From a virus (Duplodnaviria > Caudoviricetes): a stretch of 64,000 bases of DNA. The notes under the pieces were generated by a model that saw only the letters and a program-made list of their open reading frames with translations, was not told the origin of the DNA and searched no databases. The position numbers were made by a program, and so were the translations under genes. The stretch is taken from positions 17,625 to 81,624 of IMG/VR virus record IMGVR_UViG_3300047160_014545. One strand, given 5' to 3'. Shown one piece after another: positions 28,016-52,387 of the stretch. Position 1 is the first letter of the stretch; each line of letters starts with the position of its first letter.

Positions 28016-28159
28016 GGAATCTCTCCTTCTCTTATCACTCGGGCCACGGATTGGGCGGTCGCGGCTTTTTTACCTTATCCGGTTTGTATTTGCGTAGTTG
28101 TTTTTGCCGTTTCATGCGTCTGGATTCGGCGGTGTAGGGTTTCGTCGGGCGAAATTTTC

Positions 28160-28672
28160 TCATTTTCCCTCTCGCACCGTCACGTCACGATAGGCAGCCT
28201 CGGGCAGCCATTCACCAGAACGCGTGCGGATGACGCATTCCTGTAGCGGGCCCCAAGATGTCTCGATGCCAGCGGCTCGCCAGCGGCTGTGACAGCTGGC
28301 CGCCGCTAACCACATGCATCCGCCGACCATGATTGACAGCACACAAACACAAATACTCGCAAATGTAGCAAACCCAACCCAATCTCTAGTATGTCCATAT
28401 TCGTCATAAAATAGCCTCGGCAGCTTGCGGCGCTTTCTTCCTCCTTTGAACTGATCCTGAGCATCTCGAATAATCTCATCAAAGGCCTTGTCCGCTGCAG
28501 CTAGCTCGGCATAGGAACTAAGTAGATTTATCGGCTGCGGAACGATTCTGATTTTCCCGCATTCTACGCATTTCTTGTTTGGCCGTATTTGCCCGCTCAT
28601 TAGCGGCAAACTAATCCAATTAGAATGGTCGCATCTTTGCGTCAACGCACGGTCTTTATCGTCCTTTGTCAT
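28160..28672 (-). CDS. Hypothetical membrane protein
   Basis: 170 aa with one hydrophobic helix. Confidence 0.45.
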   Translation of the reverse strand: MTKDDKDRALTQRCDHSNWISLPLMSGQIRPNKKCVECGKIRIVPQPINLLSSYAELAAADKAFDEIIRDAQDQFKGGRKRRKLPRLFYDEYGHTRDWVGFATFASICVCVLSIMVGGCMWLAAASCHSRWRAAGIETSWGPLQECVIRTRSGEWLPEAAYRDVTVREGK

Positions 28673-28869
28673 TTTTCCTCTCCATTTTTTAGCTGTTCGG
28701 GATGCTCGAGCAGATAGGCCATCGCCAGGCGCACCACGCGCGGCACCGGGTGACCGATATCGCCCGCCTCGTAATAGGCGATGGTGCGCAGCCCGAGATC
28801 GAGGGCGGCACCCGCCTGCGGCTGGGTGAGCCCGAGCTCACGCCGCCATTTCTTGAGGGTGAGTTCCAT
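28669..28869 (-). CDS. XRE-family HTH regulator
   Basis: LKKWRRELGLTQPQAGAALDLGLRTIAYYEAG. Confidence 0.85.
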   Translation of the reverse strand: MELTLKKWRRELGLTQPQAGAALDLGLRTIAYYEAGDIGHPVPRVVRLAMAYLLEHPEQLKNGEEK

Positions 28870-28873
28870 TTAT

Positions 28874-29182
28874 TCATCTTTCTTTTGCAGCGGGATCGTC
28901 CGGCTGATTGCTGTCATCCCAGCCAAACGGCGACGGCAACTTATCGTAATACCGCGCAAAAATTACCCTGTCGTTAGGCGCTATTTCGCTCGCGGCACGC
29001 TGGTCCCAGGTTCGATGAATAAAGTCCGGCAATCCGAATACCGCTATCGCACGGTGATATTGACCGCTCTCGGCAAACCCTACGAAGTGAGCCGCTGTCG
29101 GTGCATCAGCAAAGACATCATCCACCGGCGCACGATGCAACCTCACGCACAGTACCCGCTCAAAACAGAGGAATTTGTTCAT
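28874..29182 (-). CDS. Conserved phage protein (HFVGF...PDFIHRTWD)
   Basis: Motif seen; start uncertain. Confidence 0.5.
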   Translation of the reverse strand: MNKFLCFERVLCVRLHRAPVDDVFADAPTAAHFVGFAESGQYHRAIAVFGLPDFIHRTWDQRAASEIAPNDRVIFARYYDKLPSPFGWDDSNQPDDPAAKER

Positions 29183-48469: not shown

Positions 48470-49099
48470 TTAACTCGCAATCCTCTGCTGCGGGTTAGGC
48501 TCTGTATGGTCCATGCCCCAAACATCGAAATTCCGGAATTCTATATCGGCGATTTCCACTAATAATTTATATAGAGAATTCCACCAATGTGAATAGGCGG
48601 AAAAGGCTTGAGCGACGGCGATGTCATCGTTGATGATAACCACCGGACACCACGACAATTTGCAGCGCAATTCGAAGTCGTAGCGGCTGCTCTGCTTGAC
48701 GACTAATTTTCTTCCATTGTGCTCAGTGACCGGAACCAATTTGGGTGGCCCGGGATAATCCGGGATCTCGCCACCGCGCCCGAAGCGAACAATCTCGCTG
48801 GCCATCAGCACCGGCAACGATAAAACCGCATCATGGAGGAGCTCGGCATCGGGATGAACAGCAGCGGCATAAACCCCGCCACGGGGCGGGCGGTCGTTAT
48901 CGATCATGCAACCGAGCTCGGCGATTCTGCCCACCGCCGCCAGCCCATCAAGACTGTGCCGACGCAAAGGCGGGGCAAAACTGTCGCGCTCGACCTCGCG
49001 TTCGCCGGCAAGCAAAGCTTTACCAGTGACCTCAATTACCCGTTGCCGGGAATAAGTCCAGATGACAAAATCCTCAAGAGATGTTGATTTGCGCAGCAA
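48470..49099 (-). CDS. Conserved alphaproteobacterial phage protein, possible regulator
   Basis: EDFVIWTY...SLDG...LGCMID...HPDAELLHDAV; has its own strong promoter. Confidence 0.6.
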   Translation of the reverse strand: MLRKSTSLEDFVIWTYSRQRVIEVTGKALLAGEREVERDSFAPPLRRHSLDGLAAVGRIAELGCMIDNDRPPRGGVYAAAVHPDAELLHDAVLSLPVLMASEIVRFGRGGEIPDYPGPPKLVPVTEHNGRKLVVKQSSRYDFELRCKLSWCPVVIINDDIAVAQAFSAYSHWWNSLYKLLVEIADIEFRNFDVWGMDHTEPNPQQRIAS

Positions 49100-49233: not shown

Positions 49234-49317
49234 GTGCCCACACCGGCCTCGCCTTGCCATGCCCGGCCAAGCCTCTCCATGCGTCGCCCTGCCGAGCCTG
49301 CCCCAGCGTACCATGCC
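49234..49317 (-). repeat. Minus-strand GGC-NN pentamer unit (candidate guide RNA)
   Basis: GGCAGGC TC GGCAG GGCGA CGCAT GGAGA GGCTT GGCCG GGCAT GGCAA GGCGA GGCCG GTGTG GGCAC. Confidence 0.8.
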
Positions 49318-49514
49318 CCTGAGCAAGCGGAGGCGGGAAATTTTCCTTCTTGACATTCCCAGCGAAATTCGCCGGAATCCATTCGCCGTCGCAGTCACGA
49401 CGGAAAAGAACGCGACACCGGAAATTTACGAGCTTCCTCGTTCCGGCGTTGCATAGCAACCCCTGTACCATCGCGTTCCGGGCGTGACTGGCCGGAACGA
49501 GGAGGACCTGATTT

Positions 49515-50549
49515 ATGACTAAAATACAATCGGACATCGCTACCATCGCAGGCGTGGCTTCGCATGGCGAGGACAGGACTGGCCCGGTAGGGCAGGCTTC
49601 GACGGGCATGGATTCGCGCGGGGCGGCAAGACAACGCTCGGCAGGCGCGGCAACGCGGGGCAGGGCAAGGATCGGCCAGCCAATGTCCGGCGTGGAAGGG
49701 CAGGCATGGCAAGGCGCGGCGGGACAGGACGCGGCGAGGCATGGCAAGGCAGGCTCGGCTGGGAGTGATCTGGTCAGACGAGGCTTGGAAGGGCCGGGCA
49801 CGGCAGGCGGGGCAACGCTCGGCAAGGAGAGGTATGGCTTGGATGGGCTCGGCCAGGCAGGCGCGGGCAGGCGTGGTAAGGCAGGGTCTGGCGTGGAGCG
49901 GCCGGCAACAAATGGTTTAGAACTCGCGCAATCTAAAGAAATCGTTCGAATCCCCGAGCCAAACTTTAAAGAAGCCATTCTCGTGATAGAGGGTACGGCG
50001 CCTTACGTGCAGCACGCGTTTTCGCAAAAAGCGCGAACGAAAATGGAGGAAAGCCAGCGCGCTGGCGCGCGCAGCAAAACCAGAAAAACACGAGAAGCAC
50101 GCAACTTCGAGAGTGATTACGAAGCTGCGATGCATCGGTCGACTGAAGGATGGCTTGGGATCCCTGCTCCATCATTTCGGAATGCTCTAATCTCCGCATG
50201 TAAAATCGTCGGCTTCGTAATGACGAAAGCCAAGCTGGCGGTTTTTATAATTGCCGATGGGATTGATGTCGTTGATGGCACACCGCTCGTCAAAATCGAG
50301 GGAGAGCCGAGGATCCATCAGAGCTATGCCCGCAACGAAAGTGGTGTAGCCGATCTGCGATGGCGACCAATGTGGGAAAAATGGTCAGCAAAGGTCCACA
50401 TCAAATGGGATGCTGATATGTTTTCGGCACAAGATATAACTAATCTAATGGCGCGGGCTGGCGGTCAGGTGGGGATTGGCGAAGGCCGGCCCGATTCACC
50501 CAACTCCAACGGGCTTGGTTGGGGCACTTTTGAGGTAATTCCATCATGA
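49515..50549 (+). CDS. RAMP/Cas7-like protein (Vipr-like); folded domain about 49893-50549
   Basis: ILVIEGTAPYVQH, GIPAPSFRNALISA and C-terminal Gly loop GIGEGRP...GLGWGTFEV. Start is either ATG 49515 (GGAGGA RBS, reading through the array) or GTG 49893. Confidence 0.75.
   Translation: MTKIQSDIATIAGVASHGEDRTGPVGQASTGMDSRGAARQRSAGAATRGRARIGQPMSGVEGQAWQGAAGQDAARHGKAGSAGSDLVRRGLEGPGTAGGATLGKERYGLDGLGQAGAGRRGKAGSGVERPATNGLELAQSKEIVRIPEPNFKEAILVIEGTAPYVQHAFSQKARTKMEESQRAGARSKTRKTREARNFESDYEAAMHRSTEGWLGIPAPSFRNALISACKIVGFVMTKAKLAVFIIADGIDVVDGTPLVKIEGEPRIHQSYARNESGVADLRWRPMWEKWSAKVHIKWDADMFSAQDITNLMARAGGQVGIGEGRPDSPNSNGLGWGTFEVIPS
49547..49904 (+). ncRNA. GGY-NN pentamer array, six complete units plus a partial seventh, delimited by GGCAGGC (VIPR-like guide array)
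   Basis: Delimiters at 49547 (CGCAGGC), 49591, 49640, 49699, 49748, 49802, 49856 and 49866; strict 5-nt phase within units. Confidence 0.8.
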
Positions 50550-50989
50550 GCATCAAAGACGAACTACTGGCGTTGACTGACACTGCGGATGGCATGATTC
50601 ATGCCGGTCAGGTCGTCAGTTGGGCGCAGCGTAACACCGATTCCGAGCTTCATCCCCAGTTCGAATGGGATGACAGTAAAGCGGCGCATGAGCACCGGCT
50701 TAATCAGGCCCGACGGCTTATCGCTATCCATGTGGTCTTTGAACCCACTGGGAAGCGCGCTGTCGTTTCGCTAATTCCTGATCGGGTACATGGGGGCGGA
50801 TACCGCCCCCTACCCCCTATTCTCTCGAATCGGGAAATGCGCAGTATGCTGGTGCGGCAAATCCTCGACGAAGCCACGCGAGTGCTCGATCGCTACCCGC
50901 AACTCAACGAGTTGAGCCCACTACGGAATGCGATCGAGACACAGCGGCGATTGCTGGAAATGGCAGAACAACCGTTGGCTGCCGATTAA
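50546..50989 (+). CDS. Partner protein of the RAMP-like gene
   Basis: ATGA overlap; VVSWAQRNTDSELHPQFEWDDSKAAHEHRLNQARRLI. Confidence 0.75.
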   Translation: MSIKDELLALTDTADGMIHAGQVVSWAQRNTDSELHPQFEWDDSKAAHEHRLNQARRLIAIHVVFEPTGKRAVVSLIPDRVHGGGYRPLPPILSNREMRSMLVRQILDEATRVLDRYPQLNELSPLRNAIETQRRLLEMAEQPLAAD

Positions 50990-50996
50990 ACTTTTC

Positions 50997-51285
50997 GGCT
51001 GGGCTCGGCTAGGCTCGGCAAGGCCTGGCAGCGCAGGCATGGTTAGGCCGGGCATGGCGGGACGGGGCTGGGCAGGCGGGGCATGGCATGGTTAGGCCAG
51101 ACACGGCCAGGACTGGCAGGCGCGGCTCGGCGGGGCCGGGCGCCGCGAGGCTAGGATGGGCGAGGCAGGGACGGGCCGGCCGGGCAAGGCGTGGTATGGG
51201 AAGGCAAGGAAGGGCGGGGCAGAAACGGAAGGGCGCGACTTGGCGCGACTCGGCACGGTTTGGGCGGGCAGGCACGGCTAGGCTG
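50997..51285 (+). ncRNA. Second GGY-NN pentamer array
   Basis: Delimiters at 51032 (CGCAGGC), 51071, 51115 and 51267; variants GGCCGGC at 51174 and GGCAGAA at 51218. Confidence 0.75.
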
Positions 51286-51295
51286 CGTTCTCTAT

Positions 51296-51357
51296 CCATG
51301 CCTGCGAGCCAACCGGGCCTGACCTTGCCTAGCCGAGCCGTGCCAAACCCAGCCATC
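51296..51357 (-). repeat. Inverted GGY-NN unit closing the second array
   Basis: Minus strand GGCTG GGTTT GGCAC GGCTC GGCTA GGCAA GGTCA GGCCC...CGCAGGC ATGG. Confidence 0.75.
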
Positions 51358-51745: not shown

Positions 51746-52387
51746 ATGGCCTATCGCAATCTCCCGCCAGTGCCGCACGACATGGATTTTCAGATCCCGC
51801 TGGTAATCGTCGGCGAGTGCCCGACACCGCCGGCAGAGGGGAACTGGTTGTTCGAAGTGAAGCAAGATGGCTGGCGGACTGTCGTGTTCACCGATGGCCG
51901 CGGCGGGCTTCGAGTGCAAACCAAGAACGGGCGAGATTACACTTGGCAATTCGCGGCACCCTTTCGCGAATTCGCACGCGAGGGCCATGCGATGATTCTC
52001 GACGGCGAGATTGTGGTCCCCGACGAAATCGGCATCACTCGCCTAGATGCGCTGCATCAAGCCATGCGCTCGGGCGAAACCGGGCGGCTGATTTTTTGCC
52101 CGTTTGACGTGCTGATCCTGGATGGCCGCGATATGCGCCCGTTTCCGATCGAGACGCGCAAGGCGAGTCTGGCAGCTCATTTTAAGGCACACCCTCACCC
52201 GACCATCAACCCGGTGCCTTGCCTGACCGGCGTTACCGCCGAAAAAGTATGGAGTTGCGCGCAGACTCTTGGCGTTGAAGGTATCGTCAGCAAAAAAATG
52301 GGCACGCCTTATTGGGGCTCGCCGCAGCCCTCAAAGGTGTGGCTCAAATCTATCTGCAACCCTCCGGCTATGATTTCAGCCGGATAG
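51746..52387 (+). CDS. ATP-dependent DNA ligase, adenylation domain only
   Basis: Motif I EVKQDGWR, ILDGEIVV, FDVLILDG, EGIVSK, WLK; ends without an OB domain. Confidence 0.85.
   Translation: MAYRNLPPVPHDMDFQIPLVIVGECPTPPAEGNWLFEVKQDGWRTVVFTDGRGGLRVQTKNGRDYTWQFAAPFREFAREGHAMILDGEIVVPDEIGITRLDALHQAMRSGETGRLIFCPFDVLILDGRDMRPFPIETRKASLAAHFKAHPHPTINPVPCLTGVTAEKVWSCAQTLGVEGIVSKKMGTPYWGSPQPSKVWLKSICNPPAMISAG

What the first reader, a model, noticed from the sequence alone, without database searches (positions are those of the whole stretch)
49234..51357. RAMP/Cas7-like gene plus partner gene flanked by GGY-NN guide arrays: a VIPR-like phage RNA-guided system
Seen: four blocks of strictly 5-nt-phased GG(C/T/A)-NN repeats (49234-49317 minus, 49547-49904 plus, 50997-51285 plus, 51296-51357 minus). 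They surround a two-gene operon whose first product has IxGxAP, GIPxxSFRNAL and a C-terminal GIGxGR...GxGxF loop. Established: these are RAMP (Cas7/Cas5/Cas6) RRM-fold hallmarks, and Cas7 polymerises on guide RNA with fixed periodicity. There is no cas1/cas2, nuclease or classical repeat-spacer array. Inference: the constant trinucleotides are protein-binding scaffold and the variable NN pairs are the guide. This matches my recollection of the recently reported VIPR (Viral Interference Programmable Repeat) systems, in which every third target base is skipped. I am recalling this from memory, so verify it.
Basis: partly seen in the sequence, partly recalled or inferred. Interest (0 to 1): 0.97.

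Follow-up and report, generated by a model that had tools for sequence, protein, structure and literature searches.

The report
Phage VIPR guide-RNA system, staggered arrays
This 81.6-kb phage carries a genuine VIPR system (a small Cas7-like protein, a partner gene and about 17 guide RNAs written in five-base GGY-NN units), a CRISPR-related DNA silencer first described in 2026 preprints, so it is a good new example of a known kind.

Summary
Four blocks of GGH-NN pentamers (17 units, 155 triplets, 84% GGC/GGA/GGT) flank a two-gene operon at 49.2-51.4 kb. VIPR is described in three 2026 bioRxiv preprints.

- **Co-occurrence.** 91 of 93 homologue loci carry the same arrays next to the gene, and 83 of 93 also carry the 147-aa partner.
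- **Array type.** Units abut through a one-base junction, GGC-A-GGC. This is the published but not experimentally tested 'staggered' array, not the tailed SUSP1 type.
- **Candidate targets.** Read with the published one-base-skip rule, guide U6 spells WVLHDLRRT. That is the catalytic box of P4-type tyrosine integrases, and 13 diverse metagenomic integrases match it in frame. Guide U5 spells a tape-measure motif. The phage itself has no integrase.
- **Unpublished details.**
  - Two antisense flanking guides nearly spell the genes next to them.
  - A conserved hairpin hides the ribosome-binding site of an ATG that opens the frame through the upstream array.

This scan has already noted VIPR systems in at least 64 other genomes. 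Verdict: new member of a known kind, moderate interest.

The parts
49236..49317 (-). Antisense flanking guide block: unit ML1 (4 triplets, 49300-49317) and unit ML2 (13 triplets, 49236-49298), joined by GGC-A-GGC
   Evidence: The reverse-complement decode of ML2 matches the start of the adjacent gene 48470-49099 at 16 of 18 read bases, counted from the start codon.
49433..49506 (+). Structured leader: a long stem whose 3' arm contains the Shine-Dalgarno GGAGGA (49499-49506) of ATG 49515
   Evidence: MFE -40.6 kcal/mol, z -3.76. The same stem occurs in the two nearest relatives, L126 and L127, with 5 compensatory pairs.
49551..49902 (+). Upstream staggered vrRNA array, 7 units (U1, U2, U3, U5, U6, U7, U8) of 9-12 triplets. 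It lies inside the open frame 49515-50549.
   Evidence: U6 (49752-49804) decodes to S-W-V-L-H-D-L-R-R-T. U5 (49703-50) decodes in reverse complement to L-[IM]-S-A-L-P-A-L-[IM].
49893..50549 (+). vipr: Cas7-like RAMP, 218 aa from GTG 49893. The true start may instead be ATG 49515, which would give 344 aa.
50546..50989 (+). vap: 147-aa accessory gene, overlapping vipr by 4 nt
   Evidence: A homologue lies directly after vipr in 83 of 93 loci. phrog_15946. AF2 pLDDT 93.4. The N-terminal part gives weak forkhead/winged-helix matches (E about 0.3), and the C-terminal part is a helical hairpin. No similarity to SUSP1 Vap1.
50997..51283 (+). Downstream staggered vrRNA array, 7 units (D1-D7) of 3-12 triplets
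51296..51357 (-). Antisense flanking guide block: unit MR1 (9 triplets, 51312-51354) plus a short remnant
   Evidence: The reverse-complement decode G-W-[LF]-Y-E-V-K-[HQ] matches the phage's own DNA ligase at 51842-51864 (N-W-L-F-E-V-K-Q, in frame, just before the KxDGxR lysine) at 13 of 16 read bases. This is the top-scoring site in the whole contig.
51746..52387 (+). ATP-dependent DNA ligase: neighbour gene and possible recoded target of MR1
   Evidence: PF01068 E 1.7e-15. SUSP1 also has a ligase next to its VIPR locus.
48470..49099 (-). 209-aa gene of unknown function: neighbour and possible recoded target of ML2
   Evidence: phrog_9306 weak hit. No homologue in the protein collection.

Best explanation
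The locus is a phage-borne VIPR system with staggered guide arrays.

**Inferred mechanism, by homology with SUSP1.** The arrays are transcribed and cut or trimmed at the GGC-A-GGC junctions into guides of about 34-59 nt. One Vipr protomer binds each pentamer. It buries the GGY triplet (His41, Arg158, Glu197 and Arg199 correspond to SUSP1 H17, R138, D177 and R179) and exposes the NN pair. The filament then pairs with double-stranded DNA that reads NN-x-NN-x, and it blocks transcription. The 147-aa Vap is a likely DNA-binding helper.

**Likely targets.** The phage has no tyrosine integrase of its own. The best-supported candidate is the catalytic-box codons of a P4-type tyrosine integrase (guide U6), as in SUSP1, where VIPR silences a satellite's recombinase. 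A tape-measure gene (guide U5) is a second candidate. Both point to competing integrative elements or phages.

**Shown here:** the anatomy, the homology, the fold, the co-occurrence, and the in-silico target matches. **Inferred:** transcription, processing, RNP formation, silencing, and the identity of the real target element.
For: **Published definition.**

**Homology to the solved SUSP1 Vipr.**. The residue equivalences are read against the residues named.

**Co-occurrence.** Arrays run at 1.71 per kb next to vipr against 0.059 per kb elsewhere, and 91 of 93 loci have them.

**Staggered grammar across the clade.** Of adjacent units, 323 have a 1-nt gap. Of those, 300 have A in the gap and 291 read GGCAGGC. 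Internal units have mostly 8-14 triplets.

**Guide turnover.** The nearest relatives (75% Vipr identity) have the same layout but entirely different NN strings, and share only vipr and vap with this phage.

**One-base skip in this clade.**
- Six of 406 guides score at least 0.9 on other loci. The other skip lengths give 2, 0 and 1, and eight shuffles give 0-3.
- The two best hits (19 of 20) fall in another phage's vap and vipr, with the skipped base on the wobble position.

**Guide U6.** Of 27 metagenome matches to 18 read bases, 13 are in-frame WVLHD[LF]RRT in integrases. These are mostly 25-42% identical to each other, and all 10 tested are Arm-DNA-bind_3 + Phage_integrase. One IMG/VR hit is also an integrase.

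**Guide U5.** Three of 4 IMG/VR hits are in frame in tape-measure genes, two of which have no other detectable similarity.

**Context.** The contig is a tailed phage: capsid, portal, terminase, tail fibre, primase. It is 100% complete by CheckV and has no tyrosine integrase, PF00589.
Against: **No expression or binding data.** No sigma-70-like promoter was found for any array.

**Trp178 of SUSP1, which stacks on the second G, is Gly198 here.** The pyrimidine pocket residues also differ (A98/L99 for E71/M72). GGA is as common as GGT here, so details of repeat recognition may differ.

**Full-length guides found little.** U6, ML2, D4 and U7 have no exact match in IMG/VR.

**The U6 and U5 hit counts are about what chance gives for 18 read bases.** Only their in-frame convergence on one gene family argues for meaning. 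The integrase matches need the rarer TTR and AGR codons, and no matched-shuffle database control could be run.

**Only one of 724 clade guides carries the integrase box.**

**The VIPR type number (I-VII) cannot be read from the text held.**
Confidence: 0.9

Rival explanations
1. The system mainly regulates the phage's own genes. The antisense flanking guides bind the adjacent ligase gene and the start of gene 48470-49099 despite mismatches, which would tune early gene expression rather than attack rivals.
For: MR1 matches the phage's own ligase at 13 of 16 read bases (81%, above the published 80% cut-off). ML2 matches the phage's own neighbour gene at 16 of 18 from the start codon. Both sites are in frame and within 500 nt of the guide. 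Own-locus near-matches are 1.9-fold enriched across the clade.
Against: Scores of this size occur by chance in 81 kb (null maxima 13 and 18). The published systems show no self-targets, and disrupting NN pairing abolishes silencing. In the clear clade example, the L037 guide fits the sister phage at 19 of 20 but its own copy at only 16 of 20, which looks like avoidance rather than use.
Confidence: 0.08
2. The locus is a decaying or inactive VIPR relic. The arrays are no longer expressed or loaded, and the decoded 'targets' are coincidences.
For: 16% of triplets are degenerate. No promoters were detected. No full-length target was found apart from one isolated 20/20 metagenome match at chance level.
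Against: vipr and vap are intact, and the family-invariant residues are present. The junction grammar is intact. The leader hairpin and Shine-Dalgarno are conserved with compensatory changes. Degeneracy of this order is normal in the clade: GGC/GGT/GGA make up 88% of triplets overall. The preprint itself notes 'frequently observed internal degeneracy'.
Confidence: 0.05
3. The pentamer blocks are not guides. They would be protein-coding Gly/Ala/Arg-rich low-complexity sequence or simple G-rich repeats, and the RAMP protein would act on some other RNA.
For: The upstream block lies in an open frame that starts at a conserved SD-ATG.
Against: A 5-nt period is not a codon multiple. Three of the four blocks are intergenic or antisense. 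Across 24 loci with upstream arrays, the vipr frame is no more open than the other two frames. The arrays track vipr in 91 of 93 loci. The same repeats were shown to be guides in SUSP1.
Confidence: 0.02

Closest known systems
VIPR systems with staggered vrRNA arrays (bioRxiv 10.64898/2026.04.26.720920, fig. S18 legend)
   Same: Both have a Vipr RAMP plus a vap gene, with GGY-NN pentamer arrays on both sides. [quoted passage not shown] Here and in 70 of 96 related loci the junction is a single base, read as GGCAGGC in 90% of such junctions clade-wide. Both are phage-borne.
   Different: The preprint says this architecture was not confirmed by small-RNA sequencing. Three features seen here are not in the text held: antisense guide units flanking the operon (rare, 5 of 93 loci), an upstream array inside an open frame, and an SD-sequestering leader. 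The type number could not be assigned.
Type II VIPR of Escherichia phage SUSP1 (NC_028808.2; vipr 28474-29061, vap1 28031-28471; PDB 36pp)
   Same: The Vipr proteins are homologous over their full length, and His, Arg, Asp/Glu and Arg of the GG/Y pockets are conserved. Both are two-gene operons with a partner of about 146 aa, a DNA ligase next door and arrays on both sides. Both are phages that carry no tyrosine integrase themselves (checked here only for this phage) and have at least one guide reading a recombinase gene at codon positions 1-2.
   Different: Each SUSP1 vrRNA is a separate unit with a conserved 3' tail. Here there is no tail, and units are fused head to tail. Vap shows no similarity to Vap1. 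The triplets here are mostly GGC, and GGA is tolerated, whereas SUSP1 uses mostly GGT. Trp178 is replaced by Gly, and the G-loop carries an 8-residue insert.
Class 1 CRISPR-Cas backbone subunit Cas7 (Csm3 of type III-A, e.g. 8do6_E, 6ifn)
   Different: There is no cas1/cas2, Cas10, Cas5/6 or repeat-spacer array. The period is 5 rather than 6. The constant bases lie inside the guide. The target is read discontinuously, and according to the preprints it is double-stranded DNA.

Membership tests
VIPR system | Residues that hold the GGY motif in SUSP1 (H17, R138, D177, W178, R179) | tested here: inconclusive
   From the alignment: H41, R158, E197 (Asp to Glu) and R199 are conserved and invariant in the family. 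W178 corresponds to the invariant G198, and E71/M72 correspond to A98/L99.
VIPR system | Tandem YNNGG (GGY-NN) repeats of at least 4 units beside vipr, with GGY conserved and NN hypervariable | tested here: met
   17 units. 91 of 93 homologue loci have such arrays. The NN strings of the 75%-identical relatives are unrelated.
VIPR system | Minimal locus of vipr plus one vap gene, with no cas genes and no CRISPR array | tested here: met
   vap is conserved in 83 of 93 loci. No Pfam or PADLOC hit for the seven genes checked. No CRISPR-type repeat in the window.
VIPR system | Carried mostly by viruses or proviruses | tested here: met
   Capsid, portal, terminase, tail fibre and primase are on the contig. 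It is an IMG/VR record with CheckV completeness 100%.
VIPR system | Targets follow the one-base-skip rule, with the skipped base usually on the wobble position | tested here: inconclusive
   Clade level: skip 1 is enriched over skips 0, 2 and 3 and over shuffles, and the top hits fall in rival vipr/vap genes in frame. This window: U6 and U5 match integrase and tape-measure motifs in frame over 18 read bases. There was no matched-shuffle database control, and the only full-length match is one chance-level site.
VIPR system | vrRNAs are expressed, co-purify with Vipr, and silence matching DNA | not testable with these tools
   Needs small-RNA sequencing, pull-down and reporter assays.
VIPR type II (SUSP1 / P. 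fulva clade) | Each vrRNA ends in a conserved structured 3' tail | tested here: not met
   The SUSP1 tails are visible. Here units are fused by a single base with no tail, and there is no Rfam hit.
VIPR type II (SUSP1 / P. fulva clade) | vap1-type accessory gene | tested here: not met
   No BLASTP alignment. hhalign probability 0.6%.
CRISPR-Cas (class 1) | Repeat-spacer array with adaptation genes (cas1/cas2) and a multi-subunit effector | tested here: not met
   Only a single Cas7-like gene is present.

The most novel reading that the evidence does not exclude
Two linked oddities may be real biology that the preprints do not describe.

1. The two antisense guide units that bracket the operon may be weapons against sister phages. 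They would be spelled to the sister alleles of the genes right next to them: DNA ligase motif I, and the first codons of the 209-aa gene. The phage's own copies would be recoded at two or three read bases, so that guide and resistant allele travel together as a selfish pair.
2. In this subclade the upstream guide array may also be translated, as a variable N-terminal extension of Vipr starting at an ATG whose ribosome-binding site is masked by a conserved hairpin. That would couple guide production and protein synthesis.
Probability: 0.2. Interest if true: 0.6.

Novelty: new member of a known kind. Interest (0 to 1): 0.36.

Why it matters
This locus adds a complete, well-delimited example of the staggered-array form of VIPR, which the discoverers did not verify experimentally. 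Four things make it useful:

- **A clade-wide junction rule (GGC-A-GGC).** It predicts where the guides are cut.
- **A testable natural target.** The candidate is the catalytic box of P4-type integrases. It parallels the published case of SUSP1 silencing a satellite's recombinase, and it occurs in a phage that has no tyrosine integrase of its own.
- **Independent computational support for the one-base-skip code.** The support comes from a clade far from SUSP1 and includes phages whose guides hit each other's vipr and vap genes.
- **Cheap follow-up leads.** The antisense flanking guides and the masked, array-spanning reading frame can both be tested at low cost.

Tried and rejected
**Target searches that found nothing useful**
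- Self-targets: none above the shuffled-guide null in the 81.6-kb contig.
- This window's guides against 93 related loci: nothing above null.
- Decoded guides against 270 Vipr-family proteins: nothing above null.
- Exact full-length patterns of U6 (20 read bases), ML2 (24), D4 (22) and U7 (20) in IMG/VR: 0 hits.
- The one 20/20 metagenome match of U6 (L120) lies at a gene boundary with no long frame and is at chance level.
- Other guides on the integrase-bearing loci: nothing.
- The integrase-box run in 724 clade guides: found only in this window's U6.
- U2 hits (one integrase N-terminus, one RNA polymerase-like gene): too few to interpret.

**Vap**
- No Pfam or PDB sequence match.
- No similarity to SUSP1 Vap1.
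- Foldseek gives only weak forkhead/winged-helix rows, and VIA-align is dominated by the C-terminal helical hairpin. 'DNA-binding' therefore stays a guess.

**RNA and regulatory features**
- Hammerhead or any other Rfam family in 48.8-51.8 kb: none.
- tRNAs: none.
- Sigma-70 promoters for the arrays: none convincing.
- Tandem Repeats Finder misses the arrays because the NN positions vary.

**Host and relatives**
- Host identification failed. No close portal relative was found in 401 sampled genomes, and the tool gives no taxonomy for them.
- Homologues of the ligase and of gene 48470-49099: none close. The recoded-neighbour idea could therefore not be tested.

**Translation of upstream arrays as a clade-wide rule:** rejected. 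The three frames are open through the array in 5, 6 and 4 of 24 loci.
Full report
**What is in the sequence.** Reading 48.9-51.7 kb and parsing it in pentamer register gives 17 units.
- They are built as GGH-NN-GGH-NN...GGC.
- Two lie on the minus strand at 49236-49317, seven on the plus strand at 49551-49902, and seven on the plus strand at 50997-51283. One lies on the minus strand at 51312-51354, with a short remnant reaching 51296.
- Of 155 constant triplets, 101 are GGC, 16 GGA and 13 GGT. All 16 dinucleotides occur at the NN positions.
- Within a unit the 5-nt phase is exact. Most adjacent units are joined by one base (GGC-A-GGC), so the phase slips by one.
- The window has 15 chains of at least five phased units, 14 of them in this 2-kb region (one of those inside vipr). 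Shuffled sequence gives 0.9 per 64 kb.

Between the plus-strand arrays lie two overlapping genes. The first runs 49893-50549 and the second 50546-50989. The first gene may instead start at 49515.

**Is the remembered system real?** Yes.
- A literature search found three 2026 preprints. They describe Viral Interference Programmable Repeat systems.
- A small RAMP protein (Vipr) polymerises on vrRNAs made of 9-16 YNNGG repeats, one protomer per repeat.
- It hides the GGY triplet and presents the NN pairs. The complex recognises double-stranded DNA in which every third base is skipped, and it silences transcription.
- Loci usually hold only vipr and one accessory gene (vap), and most are in phages.
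- The first preprint lists 'staggered arrays with overlapping vrRNAs' among the architectures. It says that, unlike two other architectures, this one was not confirmed by small-RNA sequencing.

**The protein.**
- Pfam finds nothing. PHROGs places the two genes in families of unknown function.
- Against PDB sequences the only real hit is 'SUSP1 Vipr protein' (36pp_D). The E-value is 0.0054 with the single sequence and 2.7e-5 with a 32-sequence profile.
- I located the SUSP1 genes in NC_028808.2. A profile comparison then aligns 173 columns end to end (probability 91.9%, E 6.8e-7).
- In that alignment three of the four guanine-contacting SUSP1 residues, plus Arg179 of the pyrimidine pocket, are kept. 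They are invariant in this family: H17/H41, R138/R158, D177/E197 and R179/R199. Trp178 is Gly198, and the pyrimidine-pocket pair E71/M72 is A98/L99.
- The family is large: 3587 cluster representatives at E up to 0.001.

**Co-occurrence.** I fetched 13 genomic and 80 viral loci encoding homologues.
- 91 of 93 have phased chains beside vipr, at 1.71 per kb against 0.059 per kb in the rest of the loci.
- A homologue of the 147-aa partner follows vipr in 83 of 93.
- Downstream arrays are the rule (88 loci). Upstream arrays are less common (23), and antisense units near vipr are rare (5).
- Across 96 loci, 323 adjacent units have a one-base gap. The base is A in 300 of them, and the heptamer GGCAGGC occurs in 291. 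Internal units have mostly 8-14 triplets, and GGC makes up 75% of triplets.
- The two nearest relatives (75% Vipr identity) have the same layout but unrelated NN strings. They share nothing with this phage outside vipr and vap. The cassette therefore moves between phages, and its guides turn over quickly.

**Comparison with SUSP1.** Each SUSP1 vrRNA is a separate unit with a conserved 3' tail. Here there is no tail and no Rfam match. Vap shows no similarity to Vap1. Its confident model (pLDDT 93.4) gives only weak winged-helix-like matches for the N-terminal part and generic helical-hairpin matches for the C-terminal part. This is therefore not the type II form. The type number of the staggered form is not given in the text I could read.

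**Context.** The window is part of a single 81,624-bp IMG/VR virus record rated 100% complete. It has capsid, portal, terminase, tail fibre, methyltransferase and primase genes. It has no tyrosine integrase. A DNA ligase lies just downstream of the locus, and SUSP1 also has a ligase beside its VIPR.

**Does the one-base-skip code apply in this clade?** I took 406 guides of at least nine pairs from all loci. I scanned 1.3 Mb of array-masked DNA under skips of 0 to 3 bases.
- Six guides score at least 0.9 with skip 1. Skips 0, 2 and 3 give 2, 0 and 1. Eight shuffles of NN order give 0-3.
- The two best hits (19 of 20) are a guide of L015 in the vap gene of L030 and a guide of L037 in the vipr gene of L039. 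In both, the skipped base falls on the wobble position.
- The L037 guide matches its own vipr at the homologous site at only 16 of 20.

**Targets of this window's guides.**
- There is no self-target and no hit in the related loci. Four full-length patterns have no exact match in IMG/VR.
  - Nine pairs (18 read bases) find 27 sites in the metagenome collection. Thirteen of them are in-frame WVLHD[LF]RRT in long frames.
  - Those proteins are mostly only 25-42% identical to one another. The skipped bases vary freely.
  - All ten tested have the P4-type integrase architecture (Arm-DNA-bind_3, Phage_int_M, Phage_integrase), with the site in the catalytic domain.
  - The single IMG/VR hit is another such integrase.
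- U5, read on the other strand, finds four IMG/VR sites. Three are in frame in tape-measure genes at L-[IM]-S-A-L-P-A-L-[IM]. Two of those have no other detectable similarity.
- The number of hits is about what 18 read bases give by chance. The argument rests on convergence on one gene family, in frame.
- The integrase hits need TTR and AGR codons, so only a subset of such integrases would be hit.
- I rate 'U6 targets the integrase of a competing integrative element' at about even odds. The parallel with SUSP1, whose VIPR silences a satellite's recombinase at invariant codon positions, is close.

**The antisense flanking guides.** A note from another genome described a solo guide next to a recoded target, so I looked at the near-matches in the phage's own contig.
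- The best site in the whole contig for MR1 (13 of 16) lies 490 nt away, in frame in the ligase gene. The guide spells G-W-[LF]-Y-E-V-K-[HQ], and the gene reads N-W-L-F-E-V-K-Q, just before the KxDGxR lysine.
- ML2 has only two sites in the contig scoring at least 17 of 24. One lies 128 nt away and covers the first nine codons of the neighbour gene (16 of 18).
- Given how few sites score this high, adjacency alone has a chance of roughly 0.04 and 0.07.
- Neither neighbour gene has a close homologue in the protein collection. I therefore could not check whether sister phages carry the perfectly matching alleles. This stays a lead, with self-regulation as the rival reading.

**Leader and reading frame.** A strong Shine-Dalgarno and ATG at 49515 open a frame that runs through the whole upstream array into vipr.
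- The 60 nt before the ATG are conserved in the two nearest relatives.
- They fold into a long stem whose 3' arm contains the Shine-Dalgarno. Five pairs show compensatory changes. The window's version has MFE -40.6 kcal/mol, z -3.76.
- In these three loci the vipr frame has no stop across the array, while the other frames have 1-6. The two relatives have no start codon between the array and the Vipr core.
- Across 24 loci with upstream arrays there is no such frame preference. If this is real, it is a subclade trait.

**Verdict.** This is a bona fide VIPR system of the staggered-array kind, already published. This scan has already noted VIPR systems in at least 64 other genomes. It is a new member of a known kind. 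It offers a plausible natural target class and two small unexplained features worth a bench test.

Noticed in passing
window 49433-49517; L126:5921-6006; L127:3760-3845: A conserved leader hairpin sequesters the Shine-Dalgarno of an ATG that opens the vipr frame through the entire upstream guide array. Five pairs show compensatory changes across three loci, and the window version has z -3.76. In the two relatives there is no start codon between the array and the Vipr core, so part of the array must be translated there.
   Followed up: partly
window 51312-51354 (-) against 51842-51864; window 49236-49298 (-) against 49074-49099: The two antisense flanking guides nearly spell the adjacent genes in frame. 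MR1 matches ligase motif I at 13 of 16 read bases, and ML2 matches the first nine codons of the 209-aa gene at 16 of 18. The phage's own copies may be recoded against guides aimed at sister phages. No homologues were available to test this.
   Followed up: partly
L037:11165-11217 against L039:8410-8438 and L037:10319-10347; L015:11336-11388 against L030:7246-7274; L039:4123-4180 (-) against L037:6632-6663: Related phages aim guides at each other. A guide of L037 fits the vipr gene of L039 at 19 of 20 read bases but its own vipr at the homologous site at only 16 of 20. L039 in turn has a guide fitting L037 at 20 of 22. A guide of L015 fits the vap gene of L030 at 19 of 20.
   Followed up: yes
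L126 and L127 against window 49893-50989: Only vipr and vap (75% and 61-65% identity) are shared with the nearest relatives, and the flanking genes are unrelated. The VIPR cassette therefore moves between otherwise different phages.
   Followed up: yes
L126:6020-6260 and L127:3990-4130: The array-spanning N-terminal extensions of the two nearest relatives share a non-repeat stretch (translated ...SHEGE[LF]LVTGTPEAMAGL[EK]GLGEA...) that is absent from the window. It may be a conserved RNA element embedded in their upstream arrays.
   Followed up: no
phages collection: BK059895.1 31484-32080; Mycobacterium and Gordonia phages (e.g. NC_051648.1 37367-37960): Cultured phages carry Vipr homologues annotated as hypothetical proteins: Cyanophage Cy-LDV1 at 56% identity, and 27 mycobacteriophage and 5 Gordonia phage records at about 31%. 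These are possible laboratory models for this branch of the family.
   Followed up: no
L120:10451-10479: This is the only 20/20 match of guide U6 found anywhere. It lies at the start of a membrane-protein gene on a soil metagenome contig, not in a long frame in the guide's register. About one such hit is expected by chance.
   Followed up: partly
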